Shown here: one piece after another, positions 1 through 21,000 of the stretch
Position numbering within the stretch: position 1 is the stretch's first letter
Layout: every line of letters starts with the position of its first letter
Source of the DNA: Elusimicrobiota bacterium
GTDB taxonomy: Bacteria; Elusimicrobiota; Elusimicrobia; F11
Length of the DNA: 50,378 bases
Reading direction: 5' to 3'
Assembly: GCA_043732015.1 (NCBI GenBank)
Contig: JAYTIE010000261.1
Coordinates: 1-50,378, forward strand
The notes under the pieces: model-generated
Database searches by the model: none
Told to the model about the DNA's origin: nothing
The model's input: the letters and a program-made list of their open reading frames with translations, nothing else
Translations under genes and position numbers: made by a program

Positions 1-3000
1 GCGGCCGCGGTCGGCAGCGAACGGGGCAACGCTTCCCGTCCAAGAATGGCGATCGTCGGCTCGCGGTCAAGAAGAAGGGTGGTAAGAGAGTCAACGCGCT
101 CGGCCATATCCCGGCCGCTCCGCGCCGTCTTCAGAAGTTCAAGGGCGGCCCTTCCCCGGAATCCGGATGTTTTCCGCATGATCGCCGGATCGTTCGTGAC
201 CGGCATCCTCTCTTCCAGGAGGCTGATTCTGTCAGCGGCTGGCACCTTGTCCATGGCCGCGTTAATGATCGCGATGACTACGCGGTCATCGCTGCCCAGC
301 GCTTTCTGCATTTCTGGGAGAGCCGCATCCCGGGTTGCCGTGTTCTGGTAGAGGGAGACCAGCGCCTTGGCGGCCCGAACGCGGACCGCCGCATGCGTCA
401 CGGCCAACGCCGGGTTGGCGATGTTGACCCCCGTCTGAAGGAAAGGAAGAAGAGCCGCGCCCGTCACGACTTTCGAAAGCGAGTCGAAAGCGCGGCTCGC
501 CACGCCGGTGTTCGGATCCTGCGTCGCCGCCTTGATGAGCGCGGCGCCGACGGCGGCCCGGTTAGCTTCCGGAACGACAACCAAACCCAGGGCACGGGCC
601 GCGGCGTGACGGACCTTCACGTTCACATCGTTCAGGAGAGCCAGAAGGCTTCCATCGAAGGCCTTCGACTTCTCGATCACGGAAATCTTTGCCGTCTTCA
701 CGGTGGGCAGGAAGGGCGCCAGTTCGACGAACCCATTCCAAAGGCGCCTCACGCCGGTGCCGGGAACGCTTCTCCACCATTCGCGGATCGGATCGGCGCC
801 CTTTGCTTCAAAAGAGCGAATGGGCAGGCCGTTAACGAACTGCGAGAGCGTGAAAAGGATTATGCAGACAATCAGGAACGGAACGACGGACGAAAATACC
901 GCAAAGGCGGCGCCAGCGCCTACGAATAGCCCGAAGAAGAGGCGGTTGGATGGCATCGAGATTCTCCCGGCGCGGAGGGACACGAGGAAATCATTCACAG
1001 GGCGGAAGAAAATCTCGACCACATCGGCCATGGCGCGCGCGTAGGCCCACGCGACGCTTCTGAAGACCCGCGAGACGGCGAACGCCGCGGCCAGATTTCC
1101 CCAGCTGAACAGAATCATGAGCCAGACCGGAATCGTCGTGCCGAAGGCCAGCGCGAAAAGCCACGGGCCAAACAGGAACACGATGGCGACAACGCTGACC
1201 CACGCGAGTCCGCCCCATCGCTGGAGCGGCGTCCAGAGCGGGGGCGCCGCCGTGGTAACGAACGCGCCTGCCAGGTTGTTCAACGTCCACATGAGATAGA
1301 GACCCCACGCCACGATCAGAACCGGGTGAAGCGGCATTCCCAGGAGAAGACCCGTGGTCAACACGGCGCCCAGCCGGATCTGCCACTGAACGGCGCTTCG
1401 GGAATAAAGGGTTGCGAAGGAGACCTCGCCGGTCTCCGTTCCGATCAAGTCGCCGGCCTTTGACGTCATTGCGAACGCCGCCGTTCCGAACATGCCGTCC
1501 AGGATTCCGCGCACATGCGACGGAATCGCCATGGTGAACAGTGGGCTGTTGCGGATAATCAGCCAGCTGGTCAGCAGGATTCCTTTCAGAAGTCCGTGTT
1601 TCTCGATGTTCCGGACATACGCCGTACCATTGATGGTTTCGGCCAGGAAGACACCGACAAGCGTCCAGATGACCGGCATCGGAAGACCGATGAACGCGTT
1701 CCATTTCAGAATCAGACCAATCACGACGAACGCGACGATCGCAGCCAGGACGAATGGCTTCTTGTTGTAGAAAAGCGAGTTGAACATGAGACCGATCTTC
1801 CAGTGGACCGGCACGTTGGTGTTCAGCATGAAGCGCATGTAAATGCGCCCGAGAATTTCCTGATATTCCACCTGGCCAGAGGGATATTTGAATCCGCTTG
1901 GATTCAGGTAGATGATCAGGTTGGCGGCGGTTCTCCATCCCTTCTGTTCGTACTCGTCCATCTTGGTCATGAGGCCGAAGAGGATCATGGTGAGCGCCAT
2001 GGCGATGTCTTCTGACACAAGGTCGGTCTGGAGACCTTCAAATTCCTTCAGGGCTTCCATCTCGACATAGAACTTGCCGTATCCACCCATGACATCGGTC
2101 AGTTCCTTCACACGCTGGCCCACCGTGTTCCAGACGCTTTCCGATCCTGAAGAGGCCGCCGCGGTGGGCGTAACAGCGTTGGTGTTTCCGTAGACTGCAG
2201 GCAGGAACATCGCGATGCGCGGATCAGTGAACTCTCTCATCGCGCGGGCGGAGCTCGCCGCGAACACGGGTTCGATGTTCTGCGCGGCGTCCATGCCGGA
2301 GAGGACCTGTCCAAGGAAGGACCACATGCTCCGGCCCCAGCCGCCGTACTTGCAACCTTCGTTCGCGTCGGTCTTGGACGCCTGGAAATAGGTCATGTCG
2401 CTGTTCTGCAGCGTTTCCTGCGCCTTCGAGTAGTCCCGAAGCAGCGTGAAGTTGCGCAGCACCACGTTGGTCGACCCGACCTGTGAGGTAGGCACAACGG
2501 TGGAATTGACGGTCTCGGGGACAAGCTTCACAAGCCGCCGCCAGGAAGGAAGCGCCTGGAATGCGGCGAGCTGGCCGTGAGCTTCCGCCACCGCTTTCGC
2601 GGCGTCCCGGTATTTCTCCATCACTTTCGCGCACGCCGCGAAATGCATGAGGGGATCATTCAATCCATAGACAGCGCTGGACGCGAGTTCATCGACCGCC
2701 GCCAGCTCCGCGGGCGTCGCTCCATATTCCTGGAGTTTTTCGCGAAGCTTTACCTTGATCTCTTCGATGATGTCGTCAATGCCGAAAATGGGCCGATTGT
2801 TGACCTCGTCATACCCACCGACGAAGTAGTCCTCGAAGTAGTTCGCGAATTCTTCAAAGGGCTTCCCCGCGAGGCCTGCGCTGCCCCAGCCGATGTCGCG
2901 ACGCTCTTCTCCGGCGGCAGCCAGATCCCTTTCAAGCGTTTCCCATTCCTGGGACAGGAACGTCGCCAGGTTGTCGCGAAGATCAAACGAAGCGAGATTC

Positions 3001-6000
3001 GGAAACTGCGGATTCGGCGTGCCGCCCTTCGAGAGGGGATTCATGCCTTGCCCGAACACGAGCTGGGCGGCGATGTTGTCTTCGCGCAGAATGACCTGGT
3101 ACTTGCGGAGGACTTCTTCCCAATATTCGGCGTACATCCGGAGATATTCCGTCTCCCAGGGCTCGATGGTGCCTTCACCGCGACTCGCGCGTTCGGCTTT
3201 CAAACGAAGGGCCTTGGCGGCGTCGATTTCACTGGCGTAGCGGCGGTCGCCGTTCGGCTTCGGCCCGTCCATGCGTGGAAGTCCTTCGAGCCGTTCCGCC
3301 GGCGGCTGCCCTTCGGCCTCCAGGGGCACGGCGCGATGGCCGGTGAGATACTGTTTCATCTGCTGATATTTTTCGCTGTAGACGTAATTCTCGACGTCGC
3401 TCAGCATCACGCTGCGCTTCAGGTTCAGGCTGTCCATCGTCCGGAAATTGGCGTAACCGCGGCGGTTGATCCACAATTCCGTCTCGCGGATGATCGCGAT
3501 GACTTCACGCGTGCGCCGTCCCGTTTTAACCGGCACGTTTTTCTGGATTCCCTCCAGCTCGTTGATGAGCGCGACGGCCTCCGCCGACCTGAACTTCGGA
3601 TTCCCACGGAGATTCTCGATGAAATTGGACCAGTCAACCGGCATCCGCTCGGAGTAGTAGTGCAGCTTCGTGTCCTGCCAGTCCTGACTCCCCTTGGCGT
3701 TGACGCGGTTCCAAAATTCCATGTACTGGGCGTCGCCGGCGGCAGACACCATTTCCGTCTGGGAGAACCGGGCTTCCCAGTAGTCAATGCCCGGCTTTTG
3801 CATGTACAACAGATTGATGAACTGCTTAAGCTGATCGCGCGCGTATTCGGAGCGCGGACGGATCTCAAGATTGCCGCTGATAATCCCGTCGGCCTCTTCC
3901 TGGTCGATGTAATGCCGGTCATGAAGGAACTCAGCCAGCTGAACCCACTGATCTCCGACCGTGTGACCGGTGATGGGATCAATGGTGTTCGCGTTGACCT
4001 TGATATACCGGCTCAGTCGGCCGCTCGGCCAATCCCAAAGCTTCATGAGCGGGGTCCGGGTGATCTTTCCGCTCAGGATTCCACGCATCCAGTGAAGCGG
4101 ATTGAACAGGCCAACCAGGTCTTCCAGCGTCGTTCCTCCGGTCACAGCCGAGCGCTTGCGCTTGCCTTCCGTCCATGCTTTGACGCCGATGCCGATGTTC
4201 GTGATGGCAGGAAGGGTGACGACGGCGAAAAGAGTCAACGGAATAAAGGCGGTAACGAATCCCACGGCACCTGTCTGCGAAATCGCCGCCCAGGCGGAAA
4301 TGTAGATGAAGACGCCGAATGACAGGGCCGACATGTAGGCGGCCCAGGAGAGGAAAGACCACATCCAGAACCGCATCGCTTTACCGTCGGGTTCGCCTGA
4401 AGGGCCTTTGGAAAGACGGCGGCTCATGAACAGGTCCCAGCGCCAGGCCAGCATGGCCAGGAGGGCACCCGACGCGATGGTGAGCCAGATGATCGGCGTG
4501 AGACCGAGAACCACCGGAACGAACCCGATGAATGTTCCGACGGCAAGAAACCCGGCCAGGGCGGCGATGAGGGGCGCGATAAGAACGGGGATGGCGAATA
4601 CGAGGTTGAGCGTCGCGTAGACAGGCTTCATGAGCAACGCAGGAATCTTTCTCATGCCGCTCGAGCGAGAATCGTCGAACAGGGACGTTGCGACCCACAC
4701 GGCGGGTCCTTTGAAATTCCAGAATCGAAGGAAGGCCTCGAGGCCATTGCGGCTGGCGTGAAACGGAAGAGGAAGGATGACGTGCGTCATTCCCATAATT
4801 CCGGTGCGGCCCTCGAAAGAGGCGAGAAGCGGGTCTTTCTGTCCCGTGGATTTGTTCGTTGCGGACTTCAGGACGTCCGCAATGTCCTGGAATTCCAGCT
4901 GGACGCTTTCGGTCGCGCGGTTCGGGAACCGGGTGAACAAATATTTCGCCAGCGCTTCCATCCATTCGATTTTTCCGGGCGGATCCGTTCCGATGATGGC
5001 GGAGAGCTCCGGACGCAACTTTTCCAGCGGATCCTCGACGTTCCGGAAAAGTTCGTCGAGGTCTGCGTTCAGGAAGAGATCGGCGGGCTTGATGTTGCGC
5101 CCGTCCACGTTCAGATCGAGGCCGGCGGCGCGAGAGCGCAAAAGCTTTCCGTTCGGCTGTCCGCGGTACTGGCCCTGGTCTTTCAGAAGGGCCTGCCAGA
5201 ACATGGCATGCGCCGCCACCAGCCGGCGAACCTGATCCCCCTGGCCAGCGTCCACCATCTGGGCGGCCTGCCGCATGAGAAAATTAAGAAGCCGGCTCCG
5301 GCCGCTGTATTCGCCCATCATCTCCGTCTTGCTGGTGGACATGATGAAGACTTCGCGCCAGACCCAGGTGCGCAACGAACGTTCCGTCGGCGAGCCGTCG
5401 GGATTGAGCGCGAGGAACTTCTCGACTTCCTTCCCCTTGTCGTCTTTTTCACGTATGAGCTGCGGGCGATTGATGAGGATGTTTCGTCCTTCCTTCTTTA
5501 CGAATCCTTTGTAAGTGCCCACCGAGGCGTCCTGCGCCAGGATGTTCGAGAGGTGTTCGGTGATCATTCCACGGATGCGCTCGCGCTGGGCCGCGTTGTA
5601 TTCCCGGTCTCCCGCGGCGCCGTAGACCGCGTTGAAATCGATCGCGTTGAACGCGTCGTCGATGTAGTCGGCGAAGGTCTCGCGGATGACCGCGTCCCAC
5701 AGACGGCGGACACCCCAGATATTCTCGAATGGCCGTTCGCCCATCCGGCGCATTACCCGCCGCACAACCTCAGGCGTCAGGAGCCCCTGCGACTGGAAGT
5801 CCCGAAGCACGGAACCGAAAAACCTGGCCTGCGGGTACATGTCGACGATCGACTCGACCTGAGAGATGAAGGGGTCGACGTCGTCGGCCACCAGCGTGTT
5901 TTGAAGCGTTTGGTACTGGTACTCGCTCATCGTGGCGGAATGGAACACCCGCTCGATCGGCGCTTTTTCCAGGCTTGGGACAATGCGGTGCAGCACTGCC

Positions 6001-9000
6001 GCGAAAAGACTTTTGGTCTGCGGGACGATATTCTGGAGCTTCTTGTACATCTCCCGTTGCTGGCGCTTGGCGCCCCGGAACCAGAAATTCGTGATGAAGC
6101 CGATGATCAGGATGAACGCGATCCAGGCCAGCGGGAAGGTGATGAACCAGGGAATTGTAAATCCACTCGCCAGATAGGCGGCCACGGCCGCGAAGGGCGT
6201 GGCTTCGATCCAGTCCGGAACCTTGAAGGACGGAATGCGCAGAGAGAAAATGGTCCACGCTTCAGCCAGCGGTTTACGCCCAACCCATTCGGGGACCTTT
6301 CCGTTGAAGGGCGTGTTCTTGAGGCGCGGATCTTTTCCGGTCAGGAGTTCGAGTCCCTGCCGGTTCAGCTCCTCAGGATTGACGGCGGGCGCGCCGAACT
6401 CGGCCTGAGGATCCGCGTGAATGGCCTGGCGCACCGGAAGGCCAAAGAAATTGGTGAGGGGCGAGTTGTACAGCGTTCCCGTCGTGCCCGCGTTCGGCTG
6501 GCTCGGTCCCCACGGACCCTTCAGCTGCATCACGAGATAACCGTTGTGGAAGAGATACAGCTCCCCGTCATTCAGATCCACCAGCTGCTTCGATCCCGTG
6601 GGGTTCACCGGCGCGCCGTAAACCCAGACGTATCCCTTGCTGGCTTCCGGGGTGGCCGCGAACGGAATGCTCTTGAACTGAAAGTACAGATTCCCGTTCG
6701 CGGTGCTGAAACTCGGGAATCCGTCCGTTCCGAAGTAGAGGCGCGTGTTCTGCGGCAGCGCCCAACCGGCGCCCTGGAAGTCCTGATAGTAAAGCGAGCC
6801 TGACGGAAGCATGACTTCACCGACCATTCCGTACTGGGCGGGGAGTTTTGGTTCCGTGCTGTAGACGAACCCTTTTCCTGGGATGCCCTCGAGTTCCTCC
6901 ATCGATTCCAGACGGGAAATCATGGCCAGCTTCGGCTTGGCGCCCGGAGAATCCGAGATCACAGCGACGCGGACCAGCGGCATGTCTGGCGCCAATTTTG
7001 AAATCTCGTTGTTCTCCTCCACTTTGCCCTCTCCGTGGCTGCCGACCAAGGCCACGTCGGCAGGCGAATAAAGATTGTAGGTGGTCACGGCGCCGCGCAC
7101 CGCTTTGCGCGGCAATCCGAGTGTTGAATTGCCGATGATGAAGGTGTCTTCCACCTCTCCAGCGCGCGTTACGGTTCGCATCACCTGGTATCCATCATTG
7201 GGAAATTGATCGGTGACATTGATGGAGTGCTTCACCCACTTCTCATCGATCATCACGTAGCCTTCCTGCGTCTGTCCCGTTCCGGGAACCCAGGCGACGT
7301 TGATCTCAAGCCGTCCCTTCAGATTTCCCTCGGCCGGCTGCTCGGTGGCCACACTGCGTTTCAAGGTGTCGTTCTGGGCGGTGTAGGTCGTGGAAACAGC
7401 CCCGTTCCTTCTTTCCACGATGGACGCCGTGACCATGACGTTGCGCGGAAGTTTTGCGCGAACTTCCGGATCTATGCCGGAAAGACTGGTCAGATCAACG
7501 ACGGGGTTCGGGTCGCGGACTTTCGTGTCGGTAATCCAGGTTCCGTTCGCGAACATCGTGCGCCCGGAGGCCACATCGGATCCCGGGTAGCGCGCGTGCA
7601 TCTGCGTCACCCAGTCCGCGTTCGCCACTCCGCCATAAAATGCCTGAGAGGATTCCTGGAAAAGATCTCCCCCTTCGTCAAAGATGCGCTTGATTTCCAG
7701 ATTTCTCGGCGTGCGCTTATTCTCATCCGTTGATTCGTCCCGGTACGTCGCTCCGAGGAAAATGCGATCCGCGATCGTTGTATTCTTGACGCCTTCGCTG
7801 ACGGTGTTCATCCCGTCCCGCGTTATCCGGGTTCCATCAAAACGGGCCACTTGGCCATTCGGCGTCAGGCGGAGTTCATCAAGCATCGCCGGGACGTACA
7901 CCCCGTCCCTCGTCTTTTCGGTGCTGAGTAGAAGCCTAGGCTTGAACGCTCCCTGCTCCGCGTCCCAGACATGATCGGCGTTGAAGACGACGGTCGTTCC
8001 TTCCAGGCTTGGCGACATCGATCGGAGTACCCGACCCTGTCCGTCCATCAGGACGGACAGCGTCTGACCCCGCGAGTCCGTGACGGTGGTCCGGGTCAGG
8101 TTGCCGCTGACCGCGAACATCGCGCTCGGGTCAATCACGTTGCCCCTGGAGTCCTTCAGAGGATTGGCTCCCGCATCGAGCAGGGTCTTCATGGACCCGG
8201 GCAAAAGTTCGGGCGTTGCCAGGTCCGGAATTCCGGACGGAAGCAGCTCAATGGTCGTCGTGTGCTTCTTGTCTTCTTCCCAAGCCTTCGTGTCGGGGTT
8301 CATGTCCACACGAACCTGTCCGGTCAACACGTTCTCCGCGTTGTAGGAATGCGTCGTCCGGGTGCCCGACACGCGGTCATCCGGGCGGCCGGGGCGGTGG
8401 AAATAGTCCTGGGTCGAAACCACGCGGCTTTCTTCGATGCGGGCGAGGATCGTTTTTCGTCCGTCTTTCGGATCTGCGGCATAGGTCAACACAGGCGCGA
8501 TCTCAAGCAGCTCAACCTGGCGGCGTGAACTGACCGTGCTCCGTCTCGTCAGCTCGATGTGGGTCAGGGTTTTCGCATCGGGAATCAATTTGACGTCGTC
8601 GTACTCCCAGACCTTCCGGTCCTTCGCTCCGTCGCGAACATAGATGGCCGTCGGGATCCGGACCCGCCGGCCCGTCTTCTCAAAAACCTTGTCCTGGTTC
8701 TTCACGTCGTAGGTCGTAAATTGATTCGTATTCGGATTGAAGGCGCTGACGATGTTTCCATTCTCGTCCAGGGTCTCGATCGTCCTCTCCCCCGTCGCGA
8801 CGTTCTGGACCTCCCAGGTTCCCTCTCCCGTCAGATCATTGATGGAAAGGAAACGGCGCGTTTCCGGACGCGACACCGTCTGTCCATTTAATCCGTCCAT
8901 GAATTCCGTGTACCCATCGCGGGTCATCCATTCCCCCGCAACCGGATTCCAGACGGTGCTCGTGGCGACTTCTCTCCGGAGAATGGTCGAGCGACCGGCG

Positions 9001-12000
9001 GAGATGGCCTCGACATTGCGGGATCCCTGTCCTTCAAAGGTCATGAACTCCGTCCACACCTTCTCCATCGTCTTGTCCGTCACTTCGTATTTAAAATCAC
9101 CGTTCTCGTTCTGGATGACTTCGCCGGCATCGTTGAATTGAAGAACACGCGACACCCGGCGAGCCACTTCTTTGCGGTTCGAGTCAACCACATAGACCTC
9201 GGTCTCCGTTTCGCTGGGCAGCTTGAACCGGTTGTACCGCGTGAATTTCATCGTCACGTGTTCTCGGTCCGACGTTGTTTCGGTCATGAGCAGCATGGGA
9301 CGCTCGTTGCCCTTGGGGCCGTATGAAATCACTTCCACCCGGCGAACTTCGTTGAGGATTTTTCCCTTGTTGGCCCGTCTGATGTCCGCGCCGTATTCTG
9401 CGACATAGGTGTATTCCTTCAGCTCCCTCTCTTTCCCCTGAACGGGTGGTTTGAAGGCAACGACTGGAAGAGAATACGTGCGGACTTCGAGTCCCGCGTA
9501 GGTGTCATGGCTCAACACCTCGAAGGTGTCCAGGCCGGAGGATCGGACGTCGCGAAGAACCTTCACGATTTCATTTTTGTCGAAATCCTTTTCCCCGAGC
9601 GGAAGATAATGGGTCGACACGCCGGAATCGTGGTTGTTGCTCATCACGGAATTTCCGCTGATGTCGAAGACCTTCGTGATCACGAACTTCTGCTCGCCGA
9701 GCCGTCCGTTCGGAAGCCGGTATTCGTTGACGAACTCCATTTCCGAAACCGAGTGGCCCATCTGCGTCAGGCGCCAGAGCCGCGCGTTCAGCGAATGCCA
9801 CCCGTCCGTGTACGCGCTCACGAGATAGGGGAGGGATCCGAAGGAGGTCAGCGTGTTGAGAATGACGCCGGAATCCTTGTCCGGAATCTCTTCCTCATTC
9901 CCGATTTTCTGGCTGATAAAATTGAATTTATCGTCGACGAAGGAATCGACCGGAATGGCTTTCCCGCCCACGGAGTAAATGAAGCCCTTCAGGGGATAAC
10001 CGAACCGGTCGGTATCTTTGTACCGGACCGCTGAATTCCCCTCGATCGTGATGCTCTCGCGCTTCACGAATCCGCCGGGTTGGCCTGCTTTTGAAGGAAT
10101 CTTGCGAAAGTACTCGTATCCCGATGCGGCCAGGGGACGCGCGCGTTCGGGTCTGAAAGTGAAAATGCGGAAGCCATCGGGGTCATCCGCGCGCCCAATC
10201 GCGTAAGCCGAGCGCTGCTCGCCGGGAACATTCGATTTGATCGGGAAGCGGGCCCAGAACTGATGGAATTCGTTGAACGTCCCGTCCGGTTTCGGGAGGC
10301 GGGTGGTCACCACGTAAACGGGCGCTCCCTTCACAATGCCGTTCTCGCCGCCCGGAAGACCCAGTTCGGCCACATCTTCATCCGGGATGACCTGGATGGA
10401 GAATTCCCGGATCGTTTTCCCGTCGTAGTTCGAGACGATCGCCTGAGGGAACCACGCATCGTCTTTTCTGATTTTCAGGAGTTCGCGAAGCTTTTGACCG
10501 TTCCGGGGATCCTTGACTTCGGGCCGCTCCGGATGAAGCGGGTTGCCCACCTTCACGATCGCCTCACTATCGAAAGTCGTGGTCACGCCGGCTTTTCCGT
10601 CGCGGAGATTGAAGTGATCGTTGGAGGCCATGTTCCGGCTTCCCTCGTTCTCGTCGTTCCTGACCTGCGGAGCCAAAGTGGACTCCGGCAGAACCGGAAT
10701 GTCCACCTTCGGGACTGGCGCGAACAGGACGCCCTCGGGTTGAAGTGGATTTGAATCGGCGGACAGTTCAAACCAGGAACGCGCGCCGAGAGAACCATTG
10801 CTGACGGCCGGTGTGAGAAGAAGATTGACCACGGTGTTTTCCCGCTTGCTCGCCATCGGAATGTTTCCGCTCGTGGAATCCCGGAATGCGTTCATGGTCT
10901 TCAGGAGATCGTCGGCCTCGGCCTTGTATCTCGCCGCGTCCGGCGTCTTCTTGTAGAACTCCGCCATGACGAGGCAGGCCGATCTCATCTGGGCCGTCGC
11001 CTCGAATGAGATCATCTCCTTCCGGTTCGCATTCAGGCGCCCTTCCGTGTCGGTGAAATCAAATCCGTTGTAGCGGACTCCATTCTTCTCGATCGTCACC
11101 GCATAACGCGCGCGAATCGTTTCGAAAACAACCCGCGGATCGCGGCCTATTCCGGCGATGCCGTCCGGCCCGAGGGCCAGGAAATAGATGGTGGAAGAAT
11201 CGAAATAGGCCGTACCGTCGGCGATGAACTGTTTCTTTTCGTTCAAGGAGGCGCCGCTGTAGGGAACACCCTTCGCGTCCGTCAGCACATTTCTCAACAG
11301 ACCCTGAACGCCGCCGAACTCGGTTCGCCAGAAAGGCATGTCGCGGTCTCCGGGCACCGCGCTCATGAGATTGTTGAGGAGCGAATAATAGAGGGAATTG
11401 TCGCGGGTCGAGTAAATGTTCGGCCACGGATGTTCGCCGGCCTTCGGTCCCATCACGACGCCGACGCTGTCACCGTTCATGCCTGAAACCCATTTAACGA
11501 CCGATTTGGCGAGCAGGAGCGCGTCCGGGTCCTTCGTTGCGTGGTAGCGCTGCATCGCCAGGATGCCAACCCACAGGTTGCTGCCCGTGTCCGTCAGAGG
11601 CCCCGTCTCGGGGGCGCCGGGGTACAGGGTCAAATCCGTTTCCATTTCGGGACCGACCGGAACAGTAACGCCCACCTCATTCGCCCGGCCCGGAAGATGA
11701 GTGCGGTACATGTGGGCGAAACCCCGGAAGCCTTCGGGCGTGCGGGCCTGCCGCGCGTACTCCTTAAAGAAGAAAGTGAAAATCTTGTTCCCGGACGCGG
11801 TGTCTTTTGAACGGAGATCCGAAAGTGCCGCCGCGACCTGATCAGAAGTGCTGAACGTCCCCGAGCGCAGACGGCCGTCTCCGCCAATTTCTTCCTTGGT
11901 CAGGCTCGAGCTCAGCCCCGTACCCAGGTCACGCGGGCGGGCCTGCACGGTCGCCTTCGTAGCGGGAAGGGCCTTGCCGTCGGCGTCATTCAGCGCGAGA

Positions 12001-15000
12001 GGACGGACCGCTGGAGCAGTAACACGGAGGTTGTCCGGAATCGCCTCAACCGGGACGACGGGCCGGGCCGGAACCACCACGGGCGGAACCGCCGGGTTCA
12101 CCGGCGCTGCCGCCGGTGTGACGACAATGAGGAGGTTGTTCAGCCGGATCACGCGGTCGAGCGGCGCCACGGGGTTCTGCCCTAGGGCCAGCATCAGAAG
12201 GAAATTTTCCGAGATCAACGAGGGCGCTTCGCCCTGGGTCGACCAGCCGAGAGTCGTGTTAATACCCGGGGCCACTTCGTCCACCTTGAAGTACGCGTAT
12301 CCGCGCCCGCCCCCGGGAAGGCGTTTCACGCCGAGAATCCGCCCCGCCACGCCCCGGGCACGGTCTTCATAGCCGGTCGCCGTGGGGCCCAATGCCTTCG
12401 CTTCCGCGGGATGAGCGGTCAGCCAGGCGTTGAATTCAACCTGCGCCATTAAAAGTTGAGAAGTCAGTTCCGGTGAGAAAACGGCGGACCAGTCCGGCGT
12501 GCGGTCGTGAAATCTGTTTACCGCGGCGTCGAGCTCGATGCGCGCGGCATCTTTCTCAATATCTGTCTTTGCTTCCCGCAGCGCTTTCAGCCGCCCTTTT
12601 ACTTCCGCGGCCACGGCTAGGTTTCCGGCAGCGGCGAGGCGGAACCGCTCACGGTTTCCCGTAAAGTCATACCCGACAATCTCGTTCTTGTCGTTCCGGA
12701 TGGAATGCTGCTCGTCCATTTTCTGGAACATCGTATGGATATCGGAGATTTTGACCACCTGCTGGCCGCGGGCATTGCGATAGCCGATAATTTTGTCGAT
12801 ACCGATCAGCGTGACCGCCCAGGCATTCGCGTCGGTCGGAAGGATATTCGCGGAGATGTCTAAATTGCGGTCGATTCCAGGGAGCCAGCCCGCACGGAAC
12901 CGCGATTCCTTGGCGTCCCAGCAGTTGTCGAGGAGGAACGACAGCACCTTGTCCGCGGCGAGGCGGTACCGTTCGTCCTTGGTCAATTCATAATTGCGCA
13001 TGAAAATGGCATACGCGTCGATCTGGTGTTCCGTCGTGTAGACGGTCCAACGCGGGATTCTTTCCCGGTCGCCGCCGAAATTCTGGTCCCGCGTATCGCC
13101 CAGTTTCCCAAGCGGCCCGTGCGGAATGGCGCCGTTCTCGCGCTGCATGAGCAAAGTGAAATCGGCGGACCGCAGCATGAGCCGCTGCAACATGAGGTCT
13201 TCCGGAGAACCCGGCGTGACGGCCGCGCGGAGGTTGGCCGCCACGACGCCCACGAGAGAAATGGGACCGCTGTCGACGTTGAACTCCGCCGCTTTTACCG
13301 TCTTGTCGCCGCGGGTGCCGGTTTTCGATCCGGTGACCCAGACCTTGGGCATCGCCACGCGTTCATTTTTTTTGTTCAGGTAGAAAACATCGTCCCGGGT
13401 CGGCCACATTTCATCCAATCGGGCCATCAAGGCGATGGCATCCTGCAGGTCTTCCTTGATCCCTGTCCCCGCCAGCGTACGCGCTGTCATGATCGCGTCG
13501 TAAAGGAACGAGACGCCCTGAAGCTGAAGGTCGCCCGAGCTTTCCGGGAAGATCCGGTTGGCCAGACTGGCGCGAACAAACGCGCGCGCCGCCGCCAGGT
13601 TCTTTTCCACGGATTCCGTGACGACGGCCTGCGGGCCTGCGACGGGTCCCTGCACGCCTTCCTGATTCCCAACCTGCATGACCAGATTCAGAATCTCGCC
13701 GACGGGCGCGTTGAAGACCGCCGGAACGATCTGTCCCGCCTGATCGATCACGCCAGGAATTCCATCGCGCCGCGCGCCTTCATTTCCCTCGATCATCTGG
13801 AGGAGAATCGCTTCAAGCGGGTCGCGGAAAGTGGTGCCCAGGCCCGTGTTCGGATCAATGTAGGTGCGGTAGAGCTCCGCGCCCAGAAGGCCGCCGGGAC
13901 CGATGGGCGTCGGGATCGAAACGGAAATGAGCGCGTCCCAATATCCGGAAAGTTCGTTGTGCGCGTGGCTGCCGAGGACTGATTGCGCGGTTCCCACCGC
14001 CATTTTTCGCTCGACGATCTGTCCCGCCGAATTGATCAGATTGTCACGGAAACTTTCGAGGGGCGCGGTGGCGTCGGTTCTTTCGAACTCCCGAACCGGC
14101 GAGAGGCCGGTGACGGTCAGCGGAAGCGTCGCACCCGGAACAACCGCGCCGGTTTCAGGATTGGAGACCAGCTTGCCGTCGGCGCCGAGCGGGACATTCG
14201 CATTCATGACAACCGGGGAACCGGCCTTCTTTGTTCCGCTCCAGGAGGCGAGACCTGACGCATTAGGAATTTCGTACTGGAACGCCGTCACGTCGCCAAG
14301 GAAATTCTCGATCTTTGAGCGCCGGACACGCACGTCACGCACGCCCTTTTCCTGCATGAGGTTTACCCGGTAGGTGGTGGTAACGCCCTTGTCGCGCTTG
14401 TTCTCAAGTTCCTTCAGAACCGCGTCCTTGTTGATCGGGGTTCCGGCGGAAAGCGCCCGCGCGTTCGCCTTGGCGACAATAACGGGATCCCGCGATAGCC
14501 GGACGTTGATCTGGATGACCGGGAACGTGTAACTCTTTCCGGTCACCTCGTCCTTCACGACTTCCGTCGTCACCGGAGCCAGCGAATAGAGGTGCGTCTT
14601 GTGGCCTTCGGGATCCAGCGTGAACTTCGGGATCAGCACGCCGCGGACGCCGAAGTCGCGCTGAATTTTTGCCGCTTCGACCGTGTCGTATTCCGTGGTC
14701 TTCGTGTAGGAACGAACGGTGGCGGGCCTCCCTTCGATGAACTCGAGGGTCGTCGTCTCGCGGCTGAGGACTTCGCCGGCCGCGTTCAGGTATTCCACAA
14801 AATCAGGTTTTTCGGAACTGAGGACGTCCCGTCCATTCCGCTCCGGCACGACGAGATACCGCATGATCTTCGTCTTTCCCGTCTCCAGCAGATACGCATA
14901 GCCGTCGCGGTCGATGACCCGGCGTTCAACCGCCCTGCCGCCCTCTTCAACAACCACGTTGCTCGGAATCCATCCGCCCGTGATGGGGTGCCGGATGAAC

Positions 15001-18000
15001 CCTGAGTTGTAGGTGGTCTGATAGCCCGAATCCACGCGAACCACCTGCCCCATCGCGTTGACATGTTCCGTCTGAACCTGTCCGGTCCTGAGATTGGTGA
15101 TGGTATCGACATAGTTTCCGTCGTTGTCGACGCCGCGGACCTTGGCCTTGACCCCGTCGCGCTCGATCTCAATGAGCCCTGGCCGCGTTTCGCGCGTGCC
15201 CAACCACTTTCCGTTTTCAAAAACCTGATGCTGCGTATACTCGGCCAGTCCGTTGTCTCCAAAAGCCGTCACGTCCCGTTCCAGGTCGTTTCCTTCGGAA
15301 ATCGCCCGGAATATGACGATGTCTTTGCCCGCCGCCGTCTTCCCGACGTGAACCGGCGCAAAGTACGAGTTTTTGGCCGTGAGTCCCACGGGCGCGTCCG
15401 CAGTGGGTGTTCCGCGGATCCAGAAACCCATCAGCTTCCCGGCCTCGCGGAACTCTTCCAGTTTGAAATTCATCACGACCTTTCCCTTGAAGATCTGCTG
15501 GGCCGGAATCTCCACGACCATGAGAGTTTCCAGGGAAAGACGGTCGCCGGCGGCTTTGTCCATGTCCAGCACCATGCCGCCGGGCATCACGCGGCGAGCG
15601 ACGTTTCCATTCACGTCTCGAAATTCGATGACGGGCGGCCCCGTCGGATTTCCGTCCCCGTCGCGAGGAGAAGCGATCGGCCAGGATTTGAATTTTGCGA
15701 GACCGCCTTCGAACACCGGGCGCTGCTTGTCGTCCACTTTGTCAGGAGTCGATTCGGCGAGAACGTCATGGTTGGCCGGATAGCGGCCCGCCTTCGCTTC
15801 ATTCTTCGCCCAGCCCAGCATTGCCTCACGGTTCTCATTCAGGATCAGTCGCCGGTTCGCTTCTTCGGCTTCCGTGTAACCCGAGGGCATCTTGGCGGTG
15901 GGATCGGCGACGAGGATCACGACTTCCTTCACGCCGTCCTTGTTCGTCCGGACAAAAATAGGGGTCTTCACCTGCTTAATGAGGTCGTCCTGCGCGTAGG
16001 GATTGGGAATGGCCGCGTTAAACTCGTCGCGGAGGCGCTGATAAGCGGCGCCCTTCTTTTCGCCGGGACGGTCCCGCTCCACCCGAAGGAAGCTCGTGTC
16101 CGCGGAGAGAACAATGGCGCCGCCGCCGTTGCCCGGTTTGAACACTGCTTTGACGTCGTTGGCTTCGGAGGTATTCGAATCGATGGCCTTCTTCTGGCTG
16201 TCCGTCAGTTTGGTCTGGCCGTACAGGCGCGCGACGTCCGCCTGAAGGGCGCCCAGTGTGGCCTCGATGTCCAGCTTCGTGGGATCAACCAGCTGGTACT
16301 TGGCCAGCTCGACGCTTCTCGGCGTCGCGATGATCTCGTAGATAAATTCTTTCCCGCCTTCGGTAACGCGGAAAACCCCGTTCACGCCGGCGCCAACGCG
16401 TTCCCCGTAGTTTGCCTCCGCCATTTTCGCCGTGGCCTCGTCGATGCCGGCATCTCCCGGTTTCGCCTCCACCATGCGCAGGGATTCAGCGTCGTACTTC
16501 CGGTATCCGCCCTTCTGCTCAACTTCCGCGTATTTCGGGTAGTCCGCGATCATTCTCTTCCAGGCGTCGACTTCCGCCGCACGGTCTTCCGATGAGGGAA
16601 TTTCCGTCCACGACTCGATGAACCGCCCTTCGAGGTCGTAGCGGCGCAGCGTGCGCCCTTGGACCACATACTTGCCTTCGGCATTTTCCCACGCGATCCG
16701 GTCTATCTGGGCTTCGTCATCCACCTTCTTGCCGCCGATATCGGACTTCTTGGCGCCGATCTTGGCCTTCTCCAGCACAACCTGAAAATCACCCGAGTCT
16801 CCTTTCGGATGCGCCTCAACGGTGAAAGCCTGAACCGGATTTCCTTCCGCCTTCGAATGGATGTACCCGCCGCCCGCCTTGCGAACTTTGGCGCGCGCGT
16901 CGGCCACGTCCATCTGATGTTTCCGTAGCAGAACTTCTTCCTGCTGGTTCTGAAGGCCGCCGCGATAGACACCACGGATCTCGTCAACGCTGCCGGACCC
17001 GTTCTTGAACTGATAGGCAAAGTCTCCAGTGGGATTGATAATGATGTCCGCTTCCGCGAGCGTTCTCAGGTTCTGGCCTGTGGGGTCGAGGAACCAAAAG
17101 CGCTCCTTGGCTCCCCACGACGTGTCCTTGCCGTTCTTGTATCGCGTGATCGCACCCTGAAAGTCTCCCGAGCTCGTCAACGCCAGAAGCGTCATGGGCG
17201 CCGTTCCGAGCTGGTTCACCCCGTCCAGGAAGGCCCGTTCCGCGGCGAGCTTTCCGAAGCCGATCGAATAGCCGTAGCGATCGTTCTTCACCAGCTTTCC
17301 ATCCTTCATCACCATGGGACGGGCATCGCGCGCGATGCTCGTGTTGTAGCCGAGGTAGGAGCCCAGGCCGTACCGCCCGCCCATGCGGATGGCGGTGGCC
17401 ACGTCCGCTCTCGAGGGATAGTAAGAACCAAAAAAATTCGGGAACCGCGTGTAGTCATCTCCCTGATAGAGCTCGGTCGGGGCGTATTTGTTGCTCGTAC
17501 CGGGAGGAGGTACGCTGTAGGAGAAGGGGCGCCTGCGGCCGATCGTCAATTTCTCTTCCCAACCGGACATGGCGCGCTTGCGTATCAGGTCGGCCCGCGT
17601 GTCTTCAGGCATCTCAATAGCGAGACCCGGGAACGGCGTCAGGTACGGTTCGGTCCACGACATCGCGCCGCTGGCCACCATCTTGTTCAGCCATTCCATG
17701 TACTCCACCTTCTCGAACGGAGACAAGTTCAGGAAATAGATGACCGCCTCGTCGGACATGACGTCCGCGGGACTGGGTTCACGCCCGGAGAGGAAGGGTT
17801 TTATTTTCGCGGCGACATCGGCCGGAAGTTTCCAGTCGTGCGGGCTGTAGGGCAGACCCGGGAGTGGCTGCTCAGAATATCCGAGCGCTTCCGCGAACGC
17901 GAGGCGCCTCTTCATGTAGAGCTGCTCGATCTTTGAAAAGGCCCCGCTGGTGGAGTACGCGCCACGCGTGAAAAACTGGACAAAGGGAAGGACGTAAAGC

Positions 18001-21000
18001 CGGCGGTGCTTGTCCCTCAGTTCGTCCATTGCGCGTTCCGGGCCCAGCGTGACGATGCGCCACTCGAAGGTATCCTTGCCGTCCGGCCCCTTGACCTGAA
18101 CGGGGCGGCGCATGCCGAGAACGCCGTCGAACGCGGGACCGAACGCCATTTTGGGATCCGTGTTCTGGTTGAAGAAATCCAGATTATAAGGACCGGCCTC
18201 GCCTTTCAGCGCCGCCGCTTTCAGCGCGTCCGGGTAGAAATTGTTTGTTTCCCGCGCATAGAGATGTTCCAGATCGTCGCCGACATTGATGACGCCCAGT
18301 TCCCGCAGGTGATCGTAGTCGTAGGTCAGCTTTTCCAGGATTCCGGACTCGATAACCGAGGCAACCCAGCCGGAAAGTCCCGTCCCGGAAAAGTCAGGGA
18401 AGGTCTCCGTTACGGATTTTCCGTCGGATCCGGGCCACTTCGGCGTAAACGTCATCGTGATCATCGTCGTGTCCGCGGACCGCTTCGTCGTGATGTCCAT
18501 GTACGTTCCCTTGTACACGCCATCCTTGATGTTCTGAGCGCGAGAAATCATTTGCGTCTTCTGGACGAAATCCCAGATGGGGCCGGAGCTGTCCATGGGA
18601 GCCCGGACCGAAAGAGGACTATGGAAGGCGGCGACGGTGCCGTCTGTCCGGGATTCGACCGCGCCAATGGGGCCTTTCTCGTAGCGAATCTTCCTGTCCT
18701 TCACCGGATCGGTGAAGAAAACCTTTCGGTACTGAGCGCCACGCTGATCCAGCCCTTCGATCGAGGCGATGGTTCCGTCTTCCCACAGTCCGTATTTGAG
18801 AGTTTCCGTCTTGATCAAGCGGGCCGTCGCCCGTTCCTCCGGAGAAAGTTTGTCGAACGCGGCCGCCATTTCGCCGGGGCGGACAGCGGCGGCGCGCAGG
18901 TCTTCCCACGAGTTCAACGGATCGCTTCCATCACCCTTCACGATGAATCCATAGACCTGCGTGACAGCAACCCCGATCTGGCGGAGAGTAAAGTCACGCT
19001 CGCGCACCGACCTCTTGTGCGCGAAGCGGGCGGGCACCGAACCGCTCATATCCACTTCCTTCAAAAGATCGCGGAATGCCCGGCCGAAATCGGGGTCCTT
19101 GAGTTGACGTTCGTTCTTGATGGTCGGAAAAAATTTGTTGATGCTCGGGTCCGTCACTTTCTTGATGGACCCGTCGGGCTCCCGGTCATTGAAGACCCAC
19201 ATCGAATAGGATTCTCTCTTCCCGATCATTTCATGCGGAGCGACCCGGATTCCGCCGGGACCAAACACCAGCACCTGATTTCGGCTCATGAGTTGATCGA
19301 TCGTGGTGACCTCTTTCTGGTTGGCCTCGGGAATCGGTTCTCCGTTGGGCCCCTTCACAACCAGATACCGGAGATCGCCCTTCGCCACCGCTTTCGAGAT
19401 ATAGCTCGGCGCATCGCGGTAGATGAAATCGTGCGTTGTGATCGCGGTCCACTTGTCTTTAATCTTTACCTGGATCTGAACGCGGCCCGCATCCGCCCAG
19501 TCCAGCACCTGCTCCCCGAGATGCACTTCGAGTCCTTTGGCGGCCGCTCCTTCATAGGCGGTTCCGTCGAAATTCAGGAGCGCCATGTCGAGATCCGTGT
19601 CCAGCCGGGCCTCGACGGCGCCATGCGCCGTCGCCAGCTCCCGGTTGTAAGCGGTCTGCGCCTTCAGCAGGCCGTAAGCCAGCGCGGCCTCTCCGGAGAA
19701 AACCTTCAATCCGCCAGCGGCCATGATCCGGCGTCCGGCCTGAGCTGAGCCCGGAGGGAAAAGCCCTTCCTGCTTTTTTGGCTCGAGAACATAGACTTCG
19801 AGACCGAGGCGCTTCGCGACGATGTCCACTTTCTGATTCTTCGCATGCCCGAACTGAACCAGCTCCTCCCAGGTGATGACCTTGCCGTCGTTGCGAGGAT
19901 CCACGAGGACCACCCACGACTTTCCGTCGACGTCACGGAGCTGAATCAGCTGATCTGCGGTGATGACAAAAGGTTTTCCATCGGGACCCAGGGCCGGGAT
20001 TACGTCCTGGTTCACCAGGTGCTGGCGCACCGGATGTTCGGAGCCGCGCGGATCCGGGTCGATGGGTAGCTTCAGCTTCTTTCCATCCATCGTGATTTCC
20101 ACACCCGCCGGGAATGACGGAGGCAACACGCCGGCGCCAGGGAAGTCGGGTTCCGCAGGAAGGGTCTTACGCTGGGTGAAGAGCGCACCGCCGGTGGTGA
20201 TGCCCGTTCCGGTATCACGAATAACCGGATTCCGGCTCGACATGTTCGGACTTTTTGTTTCTGCAAGAGGCGGCAGTTGGCCAGCACGCACGCCAAAATT
20301 GATTTCCCCCGCCGCGTTGGCAACGGGGTTTCGCCCGCCCGCGACAATGCCGGGATAGGCGTCGGCAATGAGCGAGCCATCTTCCTTGGTCGATCCCATC
20401 GTGTTGAATCCGAATCCGGTCTGGACCCCAAATGCTGATTTTCCATCGGGTGTCACGGCGTAAGGGCGGCGGCCATCCTTCAGCCGTCCCAGCGACGCCT
20501 GAATTCGCATGACGGCAAGCGCTTCAGCGCGCAGCGTGGCGGCGTCGGTGCGAAGATTGACGTCCGCGTTTTCCCGGAACCACTTCTCCGTTGGGGGATT
20601 GATCTCGAGGATCGCCGCCAGCTCCAGCTTCAATGCGACCACTTCCGCGGTCCACTCGAACGAGATGATCGAATCCGGCCCGCCCAACTTCAAATCTTTC
20701 CGGTTGGCGACAAAATCGTAACCGAGCAGCCGCTTCTCTCCGTCGCGGACCCCGTGTTCTTTGTCCATCTCCTTCAGCATTAGCACCACTTCGGTGATCG
20801 GCATGACCGGCGTATTCCCCGTAACAAGGCGGTTCAGCCCCACCATGCTGAAGAACCAGACCTGGTCCGTCGGATAGCGGTTCATTTCCTTCGTGAGATC
20901 GGTGCGGTCGATGGCGGCATTCGGACGGTCGGGATCGCGGTAGGTACCCGCGTAGAAACGGTGGGCCTTCGCGTTCCACATGTTGTCCATCGCGAACTTC

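What the first reader, a model, noticed from the sequence alone, without database searches (positions are those of the whole stretch)
1770..4180. FKS/callose-synthase-like (GT48-type) beta-glucan synthase core embedded in giant protein B
An ~800-aa hydrophilic domain between two TM bundles carries five motifs in the same order as eukaryotic 1,3-beta-glucan synthases, with roughly comparable spacing. The motifs are PVDWSNFIENL, LWINRRGYANFRTM, ETLQNSDM..(D)ANEG, LVSEDIAMAL and YQEILGRIYMRF. I compare them with the remembered signatures P(V/D)EW..F, (I/L)WAS.R.QTL.RT, LQTIDMNQDNY, L(N/S)EDI(Y/F)AG and GEQ.LSR..Y.LG. The overall layout also mirrors FKS1: cytosolic helical region 4645-6078, then 5-6 TM segments, then the GT domain, then 8-9 TM segments. 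GT48 is known overwhelmingly from eukaryotes. A divergent bacterial homolog fused into a protein of about 9,000 aa or more would be unusual. It would also give the giant protein a concrete biochemical role in processive polysaccharide synthesis and export.
Basis: partly seen in the sequence, partly recalled or inferred. Interest (0 to 1): 0.85.

Follow-up and report, generated by a model that had tools for sequence, protein, structure and literature searches.

The report
FKS-like glucan synthase in giant protein
The tail of a bacterial protein of more than 9,000 amino acids contains a very divergent but real relative of the membrane enzyme that fungi and plants use to make and export beta-1,3-glucan, which gives this otherwise featureless giant protein a concrete likely job: making a polysaccharide.

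Summary
All five motif strings lie where stated, in a minus-strand reading frame of at least 9,013 codons (protein B), between two bundles of membrane helices.

B alone matches nothing in Pfam, NCBIfam or the PDB. An exhaustive HMMER search found 71 relatives, mostly huge metagenomic proteins. The named ones are mainly from Candidatus Omnitrophota.

Family profiles of both halves of the domain match yeast FKS1:
- The N-terminal half gives E=5.5e-23 and matches only FKS1/GSC2.
- The catalytic half plus membrane helices gives E=7.7e-28, against 2e-18 for BcsA.

Several relatives that B hits directly are clear Pfam Glucan_synthase members (up to E=7.5e-96). An AlphaFold model of 1,200 residues of B matches Fks1/Fks2 best, over about 1,100-1,190 columns.

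K8231, D8251 and E8344-D8345 correspond to FKS1 K1082, D1102 and E1221-D1222. They are invariant or nearly so in the family, and the core is under strong purifying selection.

- The third motif is mis-assigned. The true one is GMDAAQN.
- Four membrane helices, not five or six, precede the domain.
- No homology to the FKS1 N-terminal accessory domain was found.

Donor sugar and product remain unproven. Verdict: a new, very divergent variant of a GT48-type processive synthase, embedded in a giant protein.

The parts
3..26912 (-). Giant ORF B. The frame is open over 3..27041 and the first candidate start is GTG at 26912. It has at least 8,970 codons and its C-terminus lies beyond the left edge of the window.
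   Evidence: Its closest homologue found, on L002, runs about 660 residues past the point that aligns with B aa 8858, so roughly 500 residues of B are probably missing.
4650..5501 (-). Conserved region before the membrane helices (aa 7181-7464), inferred to be cytoplasmic. It belongs to the module in many homologues.
   Evidence: 48-70% identity to the L002 homologue, against 20-35% in the flanks. It is found at the N-terminus of homologues of about 950 aa that carry only this module. A profile of it has no PDB hit.
4149..4649 (-). First membrane bundle: four long helices (aa 7465-7505, 7508-7542, 7552-7587, 7591-7631).
   Evidence: Hydropathy and AlphaFold helices H6-46, H49-83, H93-128 and H132-172.
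3282..4124 (-). N-terminal, GT48-specific half of the glycosyltransferase domain (aa 7640-7920). It contains PRSEYARDQLKQFINLLYM, D7770 (3732-3734), PVDW (aa 7801-7804) and LWINRRGYANFRT (aa 7856-7868).
   Evidence: Family profile A2 hits only FKS1/GSC2, at E=5.5e-23, on FKS1 744-1009. hhalign of the B clade against PF02364-positive prokaryotic members gives probability 99.5% and P=6.5e-23.
2418..3281 (-). Insertion or linker specific to the B clade (aa 7921-8208, about 290 residues). In most homologues the equivalent stretch is 45-170 residues.
   Evidence: Parts of it have low pLDDT.
1809..2417 (-). Catalytic half of the GT-A domain (aa 8209-8411). It contains K8231 (2349-2351), D8251-A-A (2283-2291), Y8321-G8322, E8344-D8345 (2007-2012) and QEILGR (aa 8394-8399).
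   Evidence: Invariant or nearly invariant columns in alignment A1. Profile A1 hits FKS1 1074-1485 at E=7.7e-28. Identity to the L002 homologue peaks at 92%. pN is 0.10 while pS is saturated.
816..1808 (-). Second membrane bundle (aa 8412-8742, about 7-8 helices), the presumed translocation channel together with the first bundle.
   Evidence: Hydropathy and AlphaFold helices from H953 to H1199. The FKS1 alignment extends to residue 1485, through its membrane helices.
432..647 (-). HEAT repeats C-terminal to the synthase module (aa 8799-8870).
   Evidence: Pfam HEAT_2 at E=2.2e-6, 28.3 bits against a 27.7-bit cut-off. The same order is seen in the L002 homologue (HEAT_2 E=1.5e-12). P0041 also has a HEAT_2 match after its synthase, but below Pfam's cut-off (E=4.3e-5, 24.1 bits against 27.7).

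Best explanation
Residues about 7,180-8,750 of giant protein B form a self-contained, membrane-embedded processive glycosyltransferase module. It is homologous to the catalytic and translocation core of eukaryotic GT48 beta-1,3-glucan synthases (FKS1, callose synthase).

Shown here:
- Homology of both halves of the cytoplasmic GT-A domain and of the following membrane helices to FKS1.
- The layout: four membrane helices, then the GT domain, then about 7-8 membrane helices.
- Conservation of the lysine (K8231), the first aspartate of the DxD-equivalent motif (D8251) and the ED catalytic pair (E8344-D8345).
- Strong purifying selection on this core.

Inferred:
- The GT domain faces the cytoplasm and binds a nucleotide sugar, most likely UDP-glucose.
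- D8345 acts as catalytic base.
- The growing glycan, most likely a beta-glucan, is threaded outward through a channel made by the flanking helices, as in FKS1 and BcsA.
- The glycan emerges beside the roughly 5,600-residue extracytoplasmic part of the same polypeptide.
- The C-terminal HEAT repeats are a protein-interaction surface. Which side of the membrane they face was not determined.

The module recurs in many otherwise unrelated giant proteins, chiefly from Candidatus Omnitrophota.
For: - Exhaustive phmmer search. B aa 7460-8659 finds 71 relatives at E<=1e-3 in 1.84 billion proteins. These include P0010 (9.7e-24), P0012 (5.2e-22), P0038 (6e-10), P0041 (6.4e-9) and P0060 (4.7e-6).
- Those relatives are Pfam Glucan_synthase members, far above the 37.2-bit cut-off: P0041 7.5e-96, P0038 1.3e-94, P0060 7.7e-31, P0012 8e-29, P0010 1.2e-24. 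12 of 32 family members match PF02364.
- Family profiles against PDB sequences. Catalytic half plus membrane helices: FKS1 E=7.7e-28 over FKS1 1074-1485, against BcsA 2e-18 over a shorter stretch. N-terminal half: FKS1/GSC2 only, E=5.5e-23.
- hhalign of the B clade against PF02364-positive prokaryotic members: probability 99.5% and 99.9%, P=6.5e-23 and 3.4e-33.
- AlphaFold model of 1,200 residues of B (pTM 0.70). The top Foldseek hits are Fks2 and Fks1 at E=1.3e-8 to 8.9e-8 over 1,114-1,187 columns. BcsA aligns over only about 400 columns. The half-domain model (pLDDT 77.6) hits BcsA, HAS, Chs and Fks.
- Conserved residues. D8251, G8322, E8344 and D8345 are invariant, and K8231 is at least 90% conserved, in 32 sequences.
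- Selection, B against the L002 homologue. Identity is 92% around the ED pair and 20-35% in the flanks. pN is 0.10 in the core and 0.51-0.54 in the flanks, with synonymous sites saturated.
- Hints about the product from fusions and neighbours. P0038 fuses a GH72-like domain (beta-1,3-glucanosyltransferase family) to the synthase and sits next to a nucleotidyltransferase gene.
Against: - B alone has no Pfam, NCBIfam or PDB sequence hit, even at E<=10.
- Profiles built only from B's six closest relatives do not reach FKS1.
- FKS1's DAN motif is D-A-A in B. Of the four FKS1 residues reported to bind UDP-glucose, only K1082 is identical. E851 is D7770, Y849 is A7768 and N1085 is G8234. The donor sugar may therefore differ.
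- The arginine of the 'QEILGR' segment is not conserved in P0002 and P0003.
- An insertion of about 290 residues splits the GT domain.
- The alignment given to AlphaFold contained FKS-like homologues and mean pLDDT is only 67, so the fold match is not fully independent of the sequence evidence.
- No activity data exist for any prokaryotic member.
Confidence: 0.8

Rival explanations
1. It is a GT2-type processive synthase, like cellulose or curdlan synthase, not a GT48 relative. On this view the FKS resemblance only reflects the fold that all these enzymes share.
For: The catalytic-half profile also hits BcsA at E=2e-18. 15 of 32 family members weakly match Pfam Glyco_trans_2_3. NCBI annotates P0012 as 'glycosyltransferase family 2 protein'. 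The half-domain model ranks BcsA, HAS and Chs above Fks in Foldseek.
Against: The N-terminal half of the domain hits only FKS1/GSC2 (E=5.5e-23) and no GT2 protein. FKS1 scores higher than BcsA and over a longer stretch that includes the membrane helices (100.5 against 69.6 bits). Relatives score up to 322 bits on PF02364. The full-region model aligns with Fks1/2 over about 1,100-1,190 columns, against about 400 for BcsA. B has no QxxRW motif.
Confidence: 0.08
2. It is a degenerate, catalytically dead relic of a synthase, kept only as a membrane anchor or scaffold in the giant protein.
For: B's clade is too divergent for Pfam or FKS1 to be reached directly. DAN has become DAA. Two of the four residues reported to bind UDP-glucose are lost. 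A large insertion splits the domain.
Against: The catalytic K, D and ED residues are invariant in the clade and nearly so in the family. The catalytic core is the most conserved part of the whole protein (92% identity against 20-35%; pN 0.10 against 0.5 with saturated pS). A mere anchor would not be expected to show this pattern.
Confidence: 0.1
3. The motif resemblance is a chance match in a long, compositionally ordinary protein.
For: B alone has no significant hit to any curated family. One of the five motifs did turn out to be a coincidental look-alike.
Against: Whole-library E-values down to 1e-23 link B to PF02364-positive proteins. The profile and profile-profile statistics and the fold match point the same way.
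Confidence: 0.01

Closest known systems
Fungal FKS1/FKS2 (GSC2) and plant callose synthases: CAZy GT48, Pfam PF02364 Glucan_synthase
   Same: Both halves of the GT-A domain and the following membrane helices are homologous to FKS1. The domain sits between membrane bundles. K1082, D1102 and E1221-D1222 have equivalents in B. The PVEW and IWAS.R....RT segments are recognisable. The full-region model matches Fks1/2 best.
   Different: - Below Pfam detection for B itself.
- DAA in place of DAN. Y849 and N1085 are not conserved, and D replaces E851.
- Four rather than six membrane helices precede the domain.
- An insertion of about 290 residues splits the domain.
- No detectable accessory domain (FKS1_dom1).
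- No Rho1 context.
- The host is prokaryotic.
- The module is embedded near the C-terminal end of a polypeptide of more than 9,000 residues and is followed by HEAT repeats.
Bacterial cellulose synthase BcsA and, from general knowledge, curdlan synthase CrdS (GT2)
   Same: The same processive, membrane-integrated GT-A synthase fold and channel logic. The profile hits BcsA at E=2e-18, and Foldseek gives TM-scores of 0.54-0.57 for the half-domain model.
   Different: The N-terminal half has no GT2 counterpart. There is no QxxRW motif and no PilZ domain. Only about 400 of 1,200 modelled residues align.
Omnitrophota giant proteins ('Archaeovorins'; West-Roberts et al., bioRxiv 10.1101/2023.11.21.568195)
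   Same: Very long ORFs with membrane helices and HEAT repeats, adjacent to one another. GT5-type glycosyltransferases occur in the protein or next to it. The named relatives of the module are Omnitrophota MAG proteins.
   Different: That preprint and a 2026 Omnitrophota preprint report GT5 and GT1 domains but no glucan-synthase or GT48 module. B has no SecA-DEAD domain that Pfam can detect. B, at about 9,500 aa, is far below their 30,000-aa class.
Cyclic beta-1,2-glucan synthase Cgs (PDB 8rf9)
   Same: A large multi-domain bacterial membrane glucan synthase. It is a weak Foldseek hit (E=3e-4).
   Different: It aligns over only about 400 columns. From general knowledge, it belongs to a different GT family and has a different domain logic.

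Membership tests
GT48 / Pfam PF02364 Glucan_synthase | The protein itself scores above the Pfam gathering threshold (37.2 bits) on PF02364. | tested here: not met
   No hit for B, even at E<=10, on the whole region or on sub-segments.
GT48 / Pfam PF02364 Glucan_synthase | Significant sequence relatedness to established members, directly or through intermediates. | tested here: met
   B hits P0010, P0012, P0038, P0041 and P0060 at E=1e-23 to 5e-6 in a library of 1.84 billion proteins. These score 87-322 bits on PF02364. hhalign gives probability 99.5% and 99.9%. Family profiles hit FKS1 at 7.7e-28 and 5.5e-23. Profiles of the B clade alone do not reach FKS1.
GT48 / Pfam PF02364 Glucan_synthase | The GT48-specific N-terminal half of the GT domain (FKS1 about 744-1009, with the PVEW and IWASLRSQTLYRT segments). 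| tested here: met
   Profile A2 hits only FKS1/GSC2. B's PVDW 7801-7804 and LWINRRGYANFRT 7856-7868 align to those segments.
GT48 / Pfam PF02364 Glucan_synthase | The catalytic ED pair (FKS1 E1221-D1222). | tested here: met
   E8344-D8345 are invariant in 32 sequences and align to the FKS1 'NEDI' segment.
GT48 / Pfam PF02364 Glucan_synthase | The DAN motif (FKS1 D1102-A1103-N1104; review PMC12715860). | tested here: inconclusive
   D8251 is invariant and aligns to D1102. B reads D-A-A, and the third position varies across the family.
GT48 / Pfam PF02364 Glucan_synthase | The UDP-glucose-binding residues Y849, E851, K1082 and N1085. | tested here: not met
   Only K1082 is identical (K8231). 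E851 is D7770, which is conservative and invariant in the B clade. Y849 is A7768 and N1085 is G8234.
GT48 / Pfam PF02364 Glucan_synthase | A cellulose-synthase-like fold, with the GT-A domain inserted between membrane bundles that form a channel. | tested here: met
   AlphaFold pTM is 0.70. The order is four helices, an alpha/beta domain, then at least six helices. The best Foldseek hits are Fks2 and Fks1 over 1,114-1,187 columns. Caveat: confidence is moderate and the input alignment contained FKS-like sequences.
GT48 / Pfam PF02364 Glucan_synthase | An N-terminal cytosolic accessory domain (FKS1_dom1). | tested here: not met
   No Pfam hit. The profile of the conserved pre-membrane region has no PDB hit.
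GT48 / Pfam PF02364 Glucan_synthase | [quoted passage not shown] | not testable with these tools
   This needs biochemistry. The only indirect hint is the GH72-like fusion in relative P0038.
GT2 processive synthases (BcsA, CesA, Chs, HAS) | A Pfam GT2-type domain and the D,D,D,QxxRW signature. | tested here: not met
   B has no GT2 Pfam hit. Its segment reads QEILGR-I, with no RW. The N-terminal half has no GT2 match. Only the shared catalytic half resembles BcsA.
Omnitrophota giant proteins (Archaeovorin type) | A giant membrane-spanning ORF with HEAT repeats in an Omnitrophota genome, often with a SecA-DEAD domain. | tested here: inconclusive
   HEAT_2 is present and there are two adjacent giant ORFs. 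The nearest named relatives are Omnitrophota. No SecA-DEAD domain was found. The taxon of the window itself was not determined: GTDB scans found nothing.

The most novel reading that the evidence does not exclude
The module defines a prokaryotic sister lineage, or the source, of the eukaryotic GT48 glucan synthases. It is found in Omnitrophota and Elusimicrobiota, and possibly in Asgard archaea. In Omnitrophota it has been built into giant single-polypeptide machines. These would synthesise a glycan in the cytoplasm, export it through their own channel, and handle it with thousands of residues of extracytoplasmic sequence on the same chain. Such a machine could serve attachment to prey or hosts.
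Probability: 0.2. Interest if true: 0.85.

Novelty: new variant of a known kind. Interest (0 to 1): 0.68.

Why it matters
- GT48 enzymes make fungal cell-wall glucan (the echinocandin target) and plant callose, and are treated as eukaryotic. A diverse prokaryotic family related to them bears on where this enzyme came from. Its least divergent members pass the Pfam threshold while the most divergent are invisible to it.
- The module gives a testable biochemical function to part of an otherwise annotation-free giant protein from a lineage (probably Omnitrophota) whose giant genes are a recognised puzzle.
- The relatives of about 950 aa that carry only this module are realistic targets for expression, activity assays and structure work.

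Tried and rejected
Searches that gave nothing:
- Pfam on all of B and all of A found only HEAT_2 in B.
- NCBIfam found nothing for B.
- phmmer of B against PDB sequences found nothing.
- The search for homologous proteins returned zero hits in all three tries: a long query, an alignment and a short core query. Relatives do exist, so these results say nothing about absence.
- GTDB genome-contig scans with B and with a B-clade alignment found no relatives.
- Profiles of the B clade alone against the PDB gave no FKS1 hit.
- The profile of the pre-membrane region gave no hit, so the idea that it matches the FKS1 accessory domain is unsupported.
- The literature search found no paper describing prokaryotic GT48 or PF02364 proteins in the held library. 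The two giant-protein preprints do not mention glucan synthase.

Ideas considered and dropped:
- 'ETLQNSDM...DANEG' as the DAN-motif equivalent. The alignments place it 26-42 residues upstream of the true site.
- Protein A carrying a second copy of the module. There is no similarity beyond the shared N-terminal 550 residues.

Full report
**The sequence**

The window consists almost entirely of two adjacent giant reading frames on the minus strand. A runs from 50282 to 27042 (7,746 aa). B is open from 27041 to 3 (9,013 codons) and runs off the left edge. The first candidate start of B is GTG at 26912. A and B share only their N-terminal 550 residues or so, at 40% identity.

The hydrophilic domain that carries them lies between hydrophobic bundles.

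**Direct searches are negative**

- Pfam finds no Glucan_synthase or GT2 domain in B, even at E<=10. Its only hit is HEAT_2 at aa 8799-8870.
- NCBIfam finds nothing.
- phmmer against PDB sequences finds nothing.
- The word-indexed homologue search returned nothing in three attempts.

On these tests alone the interpretation would have failed.

**Relatives**

An exhaustive phmmer search with B aa 7460-8659 against 1.84 billion representative proteins found 71 relatives at E<=1e-3 and 34 at E<=1e-10. Most are very long, up to 7,107 aa.

Two blocks are conserved:
- B aa about 7,640-7,920, which carries the first two motifs.
- B aa about 8,209-8,640, which holds the catalytic half and the following membrane helices.

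B and its closest relatives have about 290 residues between the blocks, where most relatives have 45-170. A region just upstream of the first membrane bundle (aa about 7,235-7,455) is also conserved. It forms the N-terminus of relatives of about 950 aa that carry only this module.

**The link to GT48**

- Catalytic block. A 32-sequence alignment (A1) has D8251, G8322, E8344 and D8345 invariant and K8231 at least 90% conserved. Its profile hits yeast FKS1 at E=7.7e-28, with profile positions 18-376 on FKS1 1074-1485. It hits GSC2 at 3e-27 and BcsA at 2e-18 over a shorter stretch.
- N-terminal block. The profile (A2) hits only FKS1/GSC2, at E=5.5e-23 on FKS1 744-1009. No GT2 protein is hit.
- Pfam on the family. 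12 of the 32 members match PF02364 and 15 match Glyco_trans_2_3.
- Relatives that B hits directly are unambiguous Pfam Glucan_synthase proteins: P0041 7.5e-96, P0038 1.3e-94, P0060 7.7e-31, P0012 8e-29, P0010 1.2e-24. The cut-off is 37.2 bits.
- B's clade is very divergent. Profiles of its six closest members alone do not reach FKS1.
- Even so, profile-profile comparison of that clade with the PF02364-positive prokaryotic members gives probability 99.5% (P=6.5e-23, 240 columns) for the N-terminal block. For the catalytic block it gives 99.9% (P=3.4e-33, 301 columns).

The homology is therefore transitive but solid.

**Structure**

- An AlphaFold model of B aa 8148-8535 (pLDDT 77.6, pTM 0.73) matches the processive membrane synthases BcsA, HAS, Chs and Fks1/2.
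- A model of B aa 7460-8659, built with a 24-sequence alignment (pLDDT 67.4, pTM 0.70), shows four long helices, an alpha/beta domain with a strand ending at D8251, and then at least six helices.
- Its best Foldseek hits are Fks2 and Fks1, at E=1.3e-8 to 8.9e-8, over 1,114-1,187 columns with TM-scores of 0.38-0.43 normalised to the query. BcsA aligns over only about 400 columns.
- The input alignment contained FKS-like sequences, so this evidence is supportive rather than independent.

**Residue map**

The functional roles of the FKS1 residues come from review PMC12715860.

| FKS1 | B |
|---|---|
| PVEW 881-884 | PVDW 7801-7804 |
| IWASLRSQTLYRT 941-953 | LWINRRGYANFRT 7856-7868 |
| E851 | D7770 (invariant in the B clade) |
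| Y849 | A7768 |
| K1082 | K8231 |
| N1085 | G8234 |
| D1102-A-N | D8251-A-A |
| E1221-D1222 | E8344-D8345 |
| GEQMLSR | about VEYQEILGR (arginine variable in the clade) |

Motif 3 (ETLQNSDM/DANEG) is a look-alike 26-42 residues upstream of the true site, GMDAAQN.

**Selection**

A JGI metagenome contig (L002) encodes the closest homologue found: 42% identity over B aa 6889-8858, but 81% over the core.

- Identity per 50 residues peaks at 92% around the ED pair and is 60-78% over aa 8231-8580. It is 20-35% in the flanks.
- Synonymous sites are saturated everywhere (pS 0.68-0.80).
- pN is 0.10 at aa 8331-8480, 0.20 over the core and 0.51-0.54 in the flanks.

This argues for a working active site rather than a relic.

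**Architecture and topology (inferred)**

Counting hydrophobic segments and applying the positive-inside rule gives a self-consistent topology:
- The N-terminus is inside.
- aa 74-696 are outside, followed by three membrane helices.
- aa about 784-1330 are inside, followed by one helix.
- aa about 1357-6959 are outside. This is about 5,600 residues with no Pfam domain and no internal repeats.
- One helix follows, then the conserved pre-membrane region inside, four helices, the GT domain inside, and about 7-8 helices.
- The HEAT repeats come last. Which side of the membrane they face was not determined.

On L002 the reading frame continues about 660 residues past the end of similarity, so about 500 residues of B probably lie outside the window.

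**Host and context**

- Named relatives are mostly Candidatus Omnitrophota MAG proteins: P0004 (6,193 aa), P0006, P0031 and P0041.
- One is from Endomicrobiales. One sits on a 2.9-kb contig binned as Njordarchaeales.
- NCBI calls them hypothetical proteins, 'glycosyltransferase family 2' or 'histidine phosphatase family'.
- GTDB representative genomes gave no B-clade match, so the taxon of the window itself is not established.
- Other giant relatives share only the synthase module with B. The module is therefore a recurrent building block of different giant proteins.
- HEAT repeats follow the module in B and in the L002 homologue. P0041 has a HEAT_2 match in the same position, but it falls below Pfam's cut-off.
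- A GT5 (glycogen-synthase-like) gene and a methyltransferase gene lie downstream in two B-clade loci.
- This fits the published description of Omnitrophota giant proteins with HEAT and GT5 domains. Neither that preprint nor a 2026 one mentions a glucan-synthase module.

**Mechanism**

The best-supported reading is a processive synthase. A cytoplasmic GT-A domain takes a nucleotide sugar, the ED pair catalyses transfer, and the polymer leaves through a channel formed by the flanking helices, as in FKS1 and BcsA.

A beta-glucan is the most likely product, by homology. One relative (P0038) also fuses a GH72-like domain, from the beta-1,3-glucanosyltransferase family, and sits beside a nucleotidyltransferase gene. 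However, two of the four FKS1 residues that bind UDP-glucose are lost, and DAN has become DAA. Donor and linkage therefore remain open.

**Comparison and novelty**

It works like FKS1. It is related to GT48 rather than GT2, because the N-terminal half is GT48-specific. B itself nevertheless fails the Pfam threshold and lacks the accessory domain, the exact DAN motif and two donor-binding residues. I therefore file it as a new, very divergent variant of the GT48 kind, not as a plain member.

Prokaryotic proteins that pass the PF02364 threshold already exist unremarked in public MAG records. The novelty lies in three things: the divergent clade, its embedding in giant proteins, and the lack of any description in the literature searched.

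Noticed in passing
window 27042-50282 (-) and 25300-26912 (-): Giant proteins A (7,746 aa) and B share only their N-terminal 550 residues or so, at 40% identity, including a signal-anchor-like helix. A has about 30 hydrophobic segments and not a single Pfam hit.
   Followed up: partly
window 6146-22980 (-), B aa about 1357-6959: About 5,600 residues lie between two single membrane helices, with no Pfam domain and no internal repeats. Counting helices places this stretch outside the cytoplasm. It is unrelated to the corresponding parts of other giant proteins that carry the same synthase module.
   Followed up: partly
L006 1442-8389 (protein P0038, NCBI MAG GCA_053991835.1): A single 2,315-aa protein fuses a GH72-like domain (beta-1,3-glucanosyltransferase family) and a GH2-type TIM barrel to a strong PF02364 domain (E=1.3e-94). 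A nucleotidyltransferase gene lies next to it. This could be a self-contained glucan synthesis and remodelling enzyme in a prokaryotic MAG.
   Followed up: partly
L007 24-2906 (protein P0012, MHA1676782.1): A PF02364-positive protein (E=8e-29) is annotated 'glycosyltransferase family 2 protein' from a Candidatus Njordarchaeales (Asgard archaeon) MAG. The contig is only 2.9 kb, so the binning is uncertain. If the assignment is right, it would bear on the origin of eukaryotic GT48.
   Followed up: no
L001 14958-17459 and L003 12147-18245: Downstream of two B-clade synthase genes lie a methyltransferase and a Glyco_transf_5 (starch/glycogen-synthase-like) domain. In L001 they are separate genes. 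In L003 they are fused in a 2,033-aa ORF that also has a GT1 domain. This looks like a conserved glycan-related neighbourhood.
   Followed up: partly
window 432-647 (-); L002 9062-12061; P0041 aa 3189-3235: HEAT repeats follow the synthase module in B and in its homologue on L002. The distant PF02364-positive Omnitrophota protein P0041 has a HEAT_2 match in the same place, but below Pfam's cut-off. The order synthase then HEAT may be a conserved unit.
   Followed up: partly
window + strand, e.g. 2577-4322, 4758-6803, 32025-34766, 34833-37637: Long plus-strand ORFs of up to 934 aa lie antisense to the two giant genes. They are most likely shadow ORFs of 60% G+C coding sequence, not genes.
   Followed up: no
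proteins P0003 and P0020 (ENA contig of 125,744 bases): P0020 carries the pre-membrane region and the N-terminal block. P0003 carries the catalytic block. Both are reported on a contig of the same length, so they may be one synthase gene split by a frameshift or by a gene-calling error.
   Followed up: no
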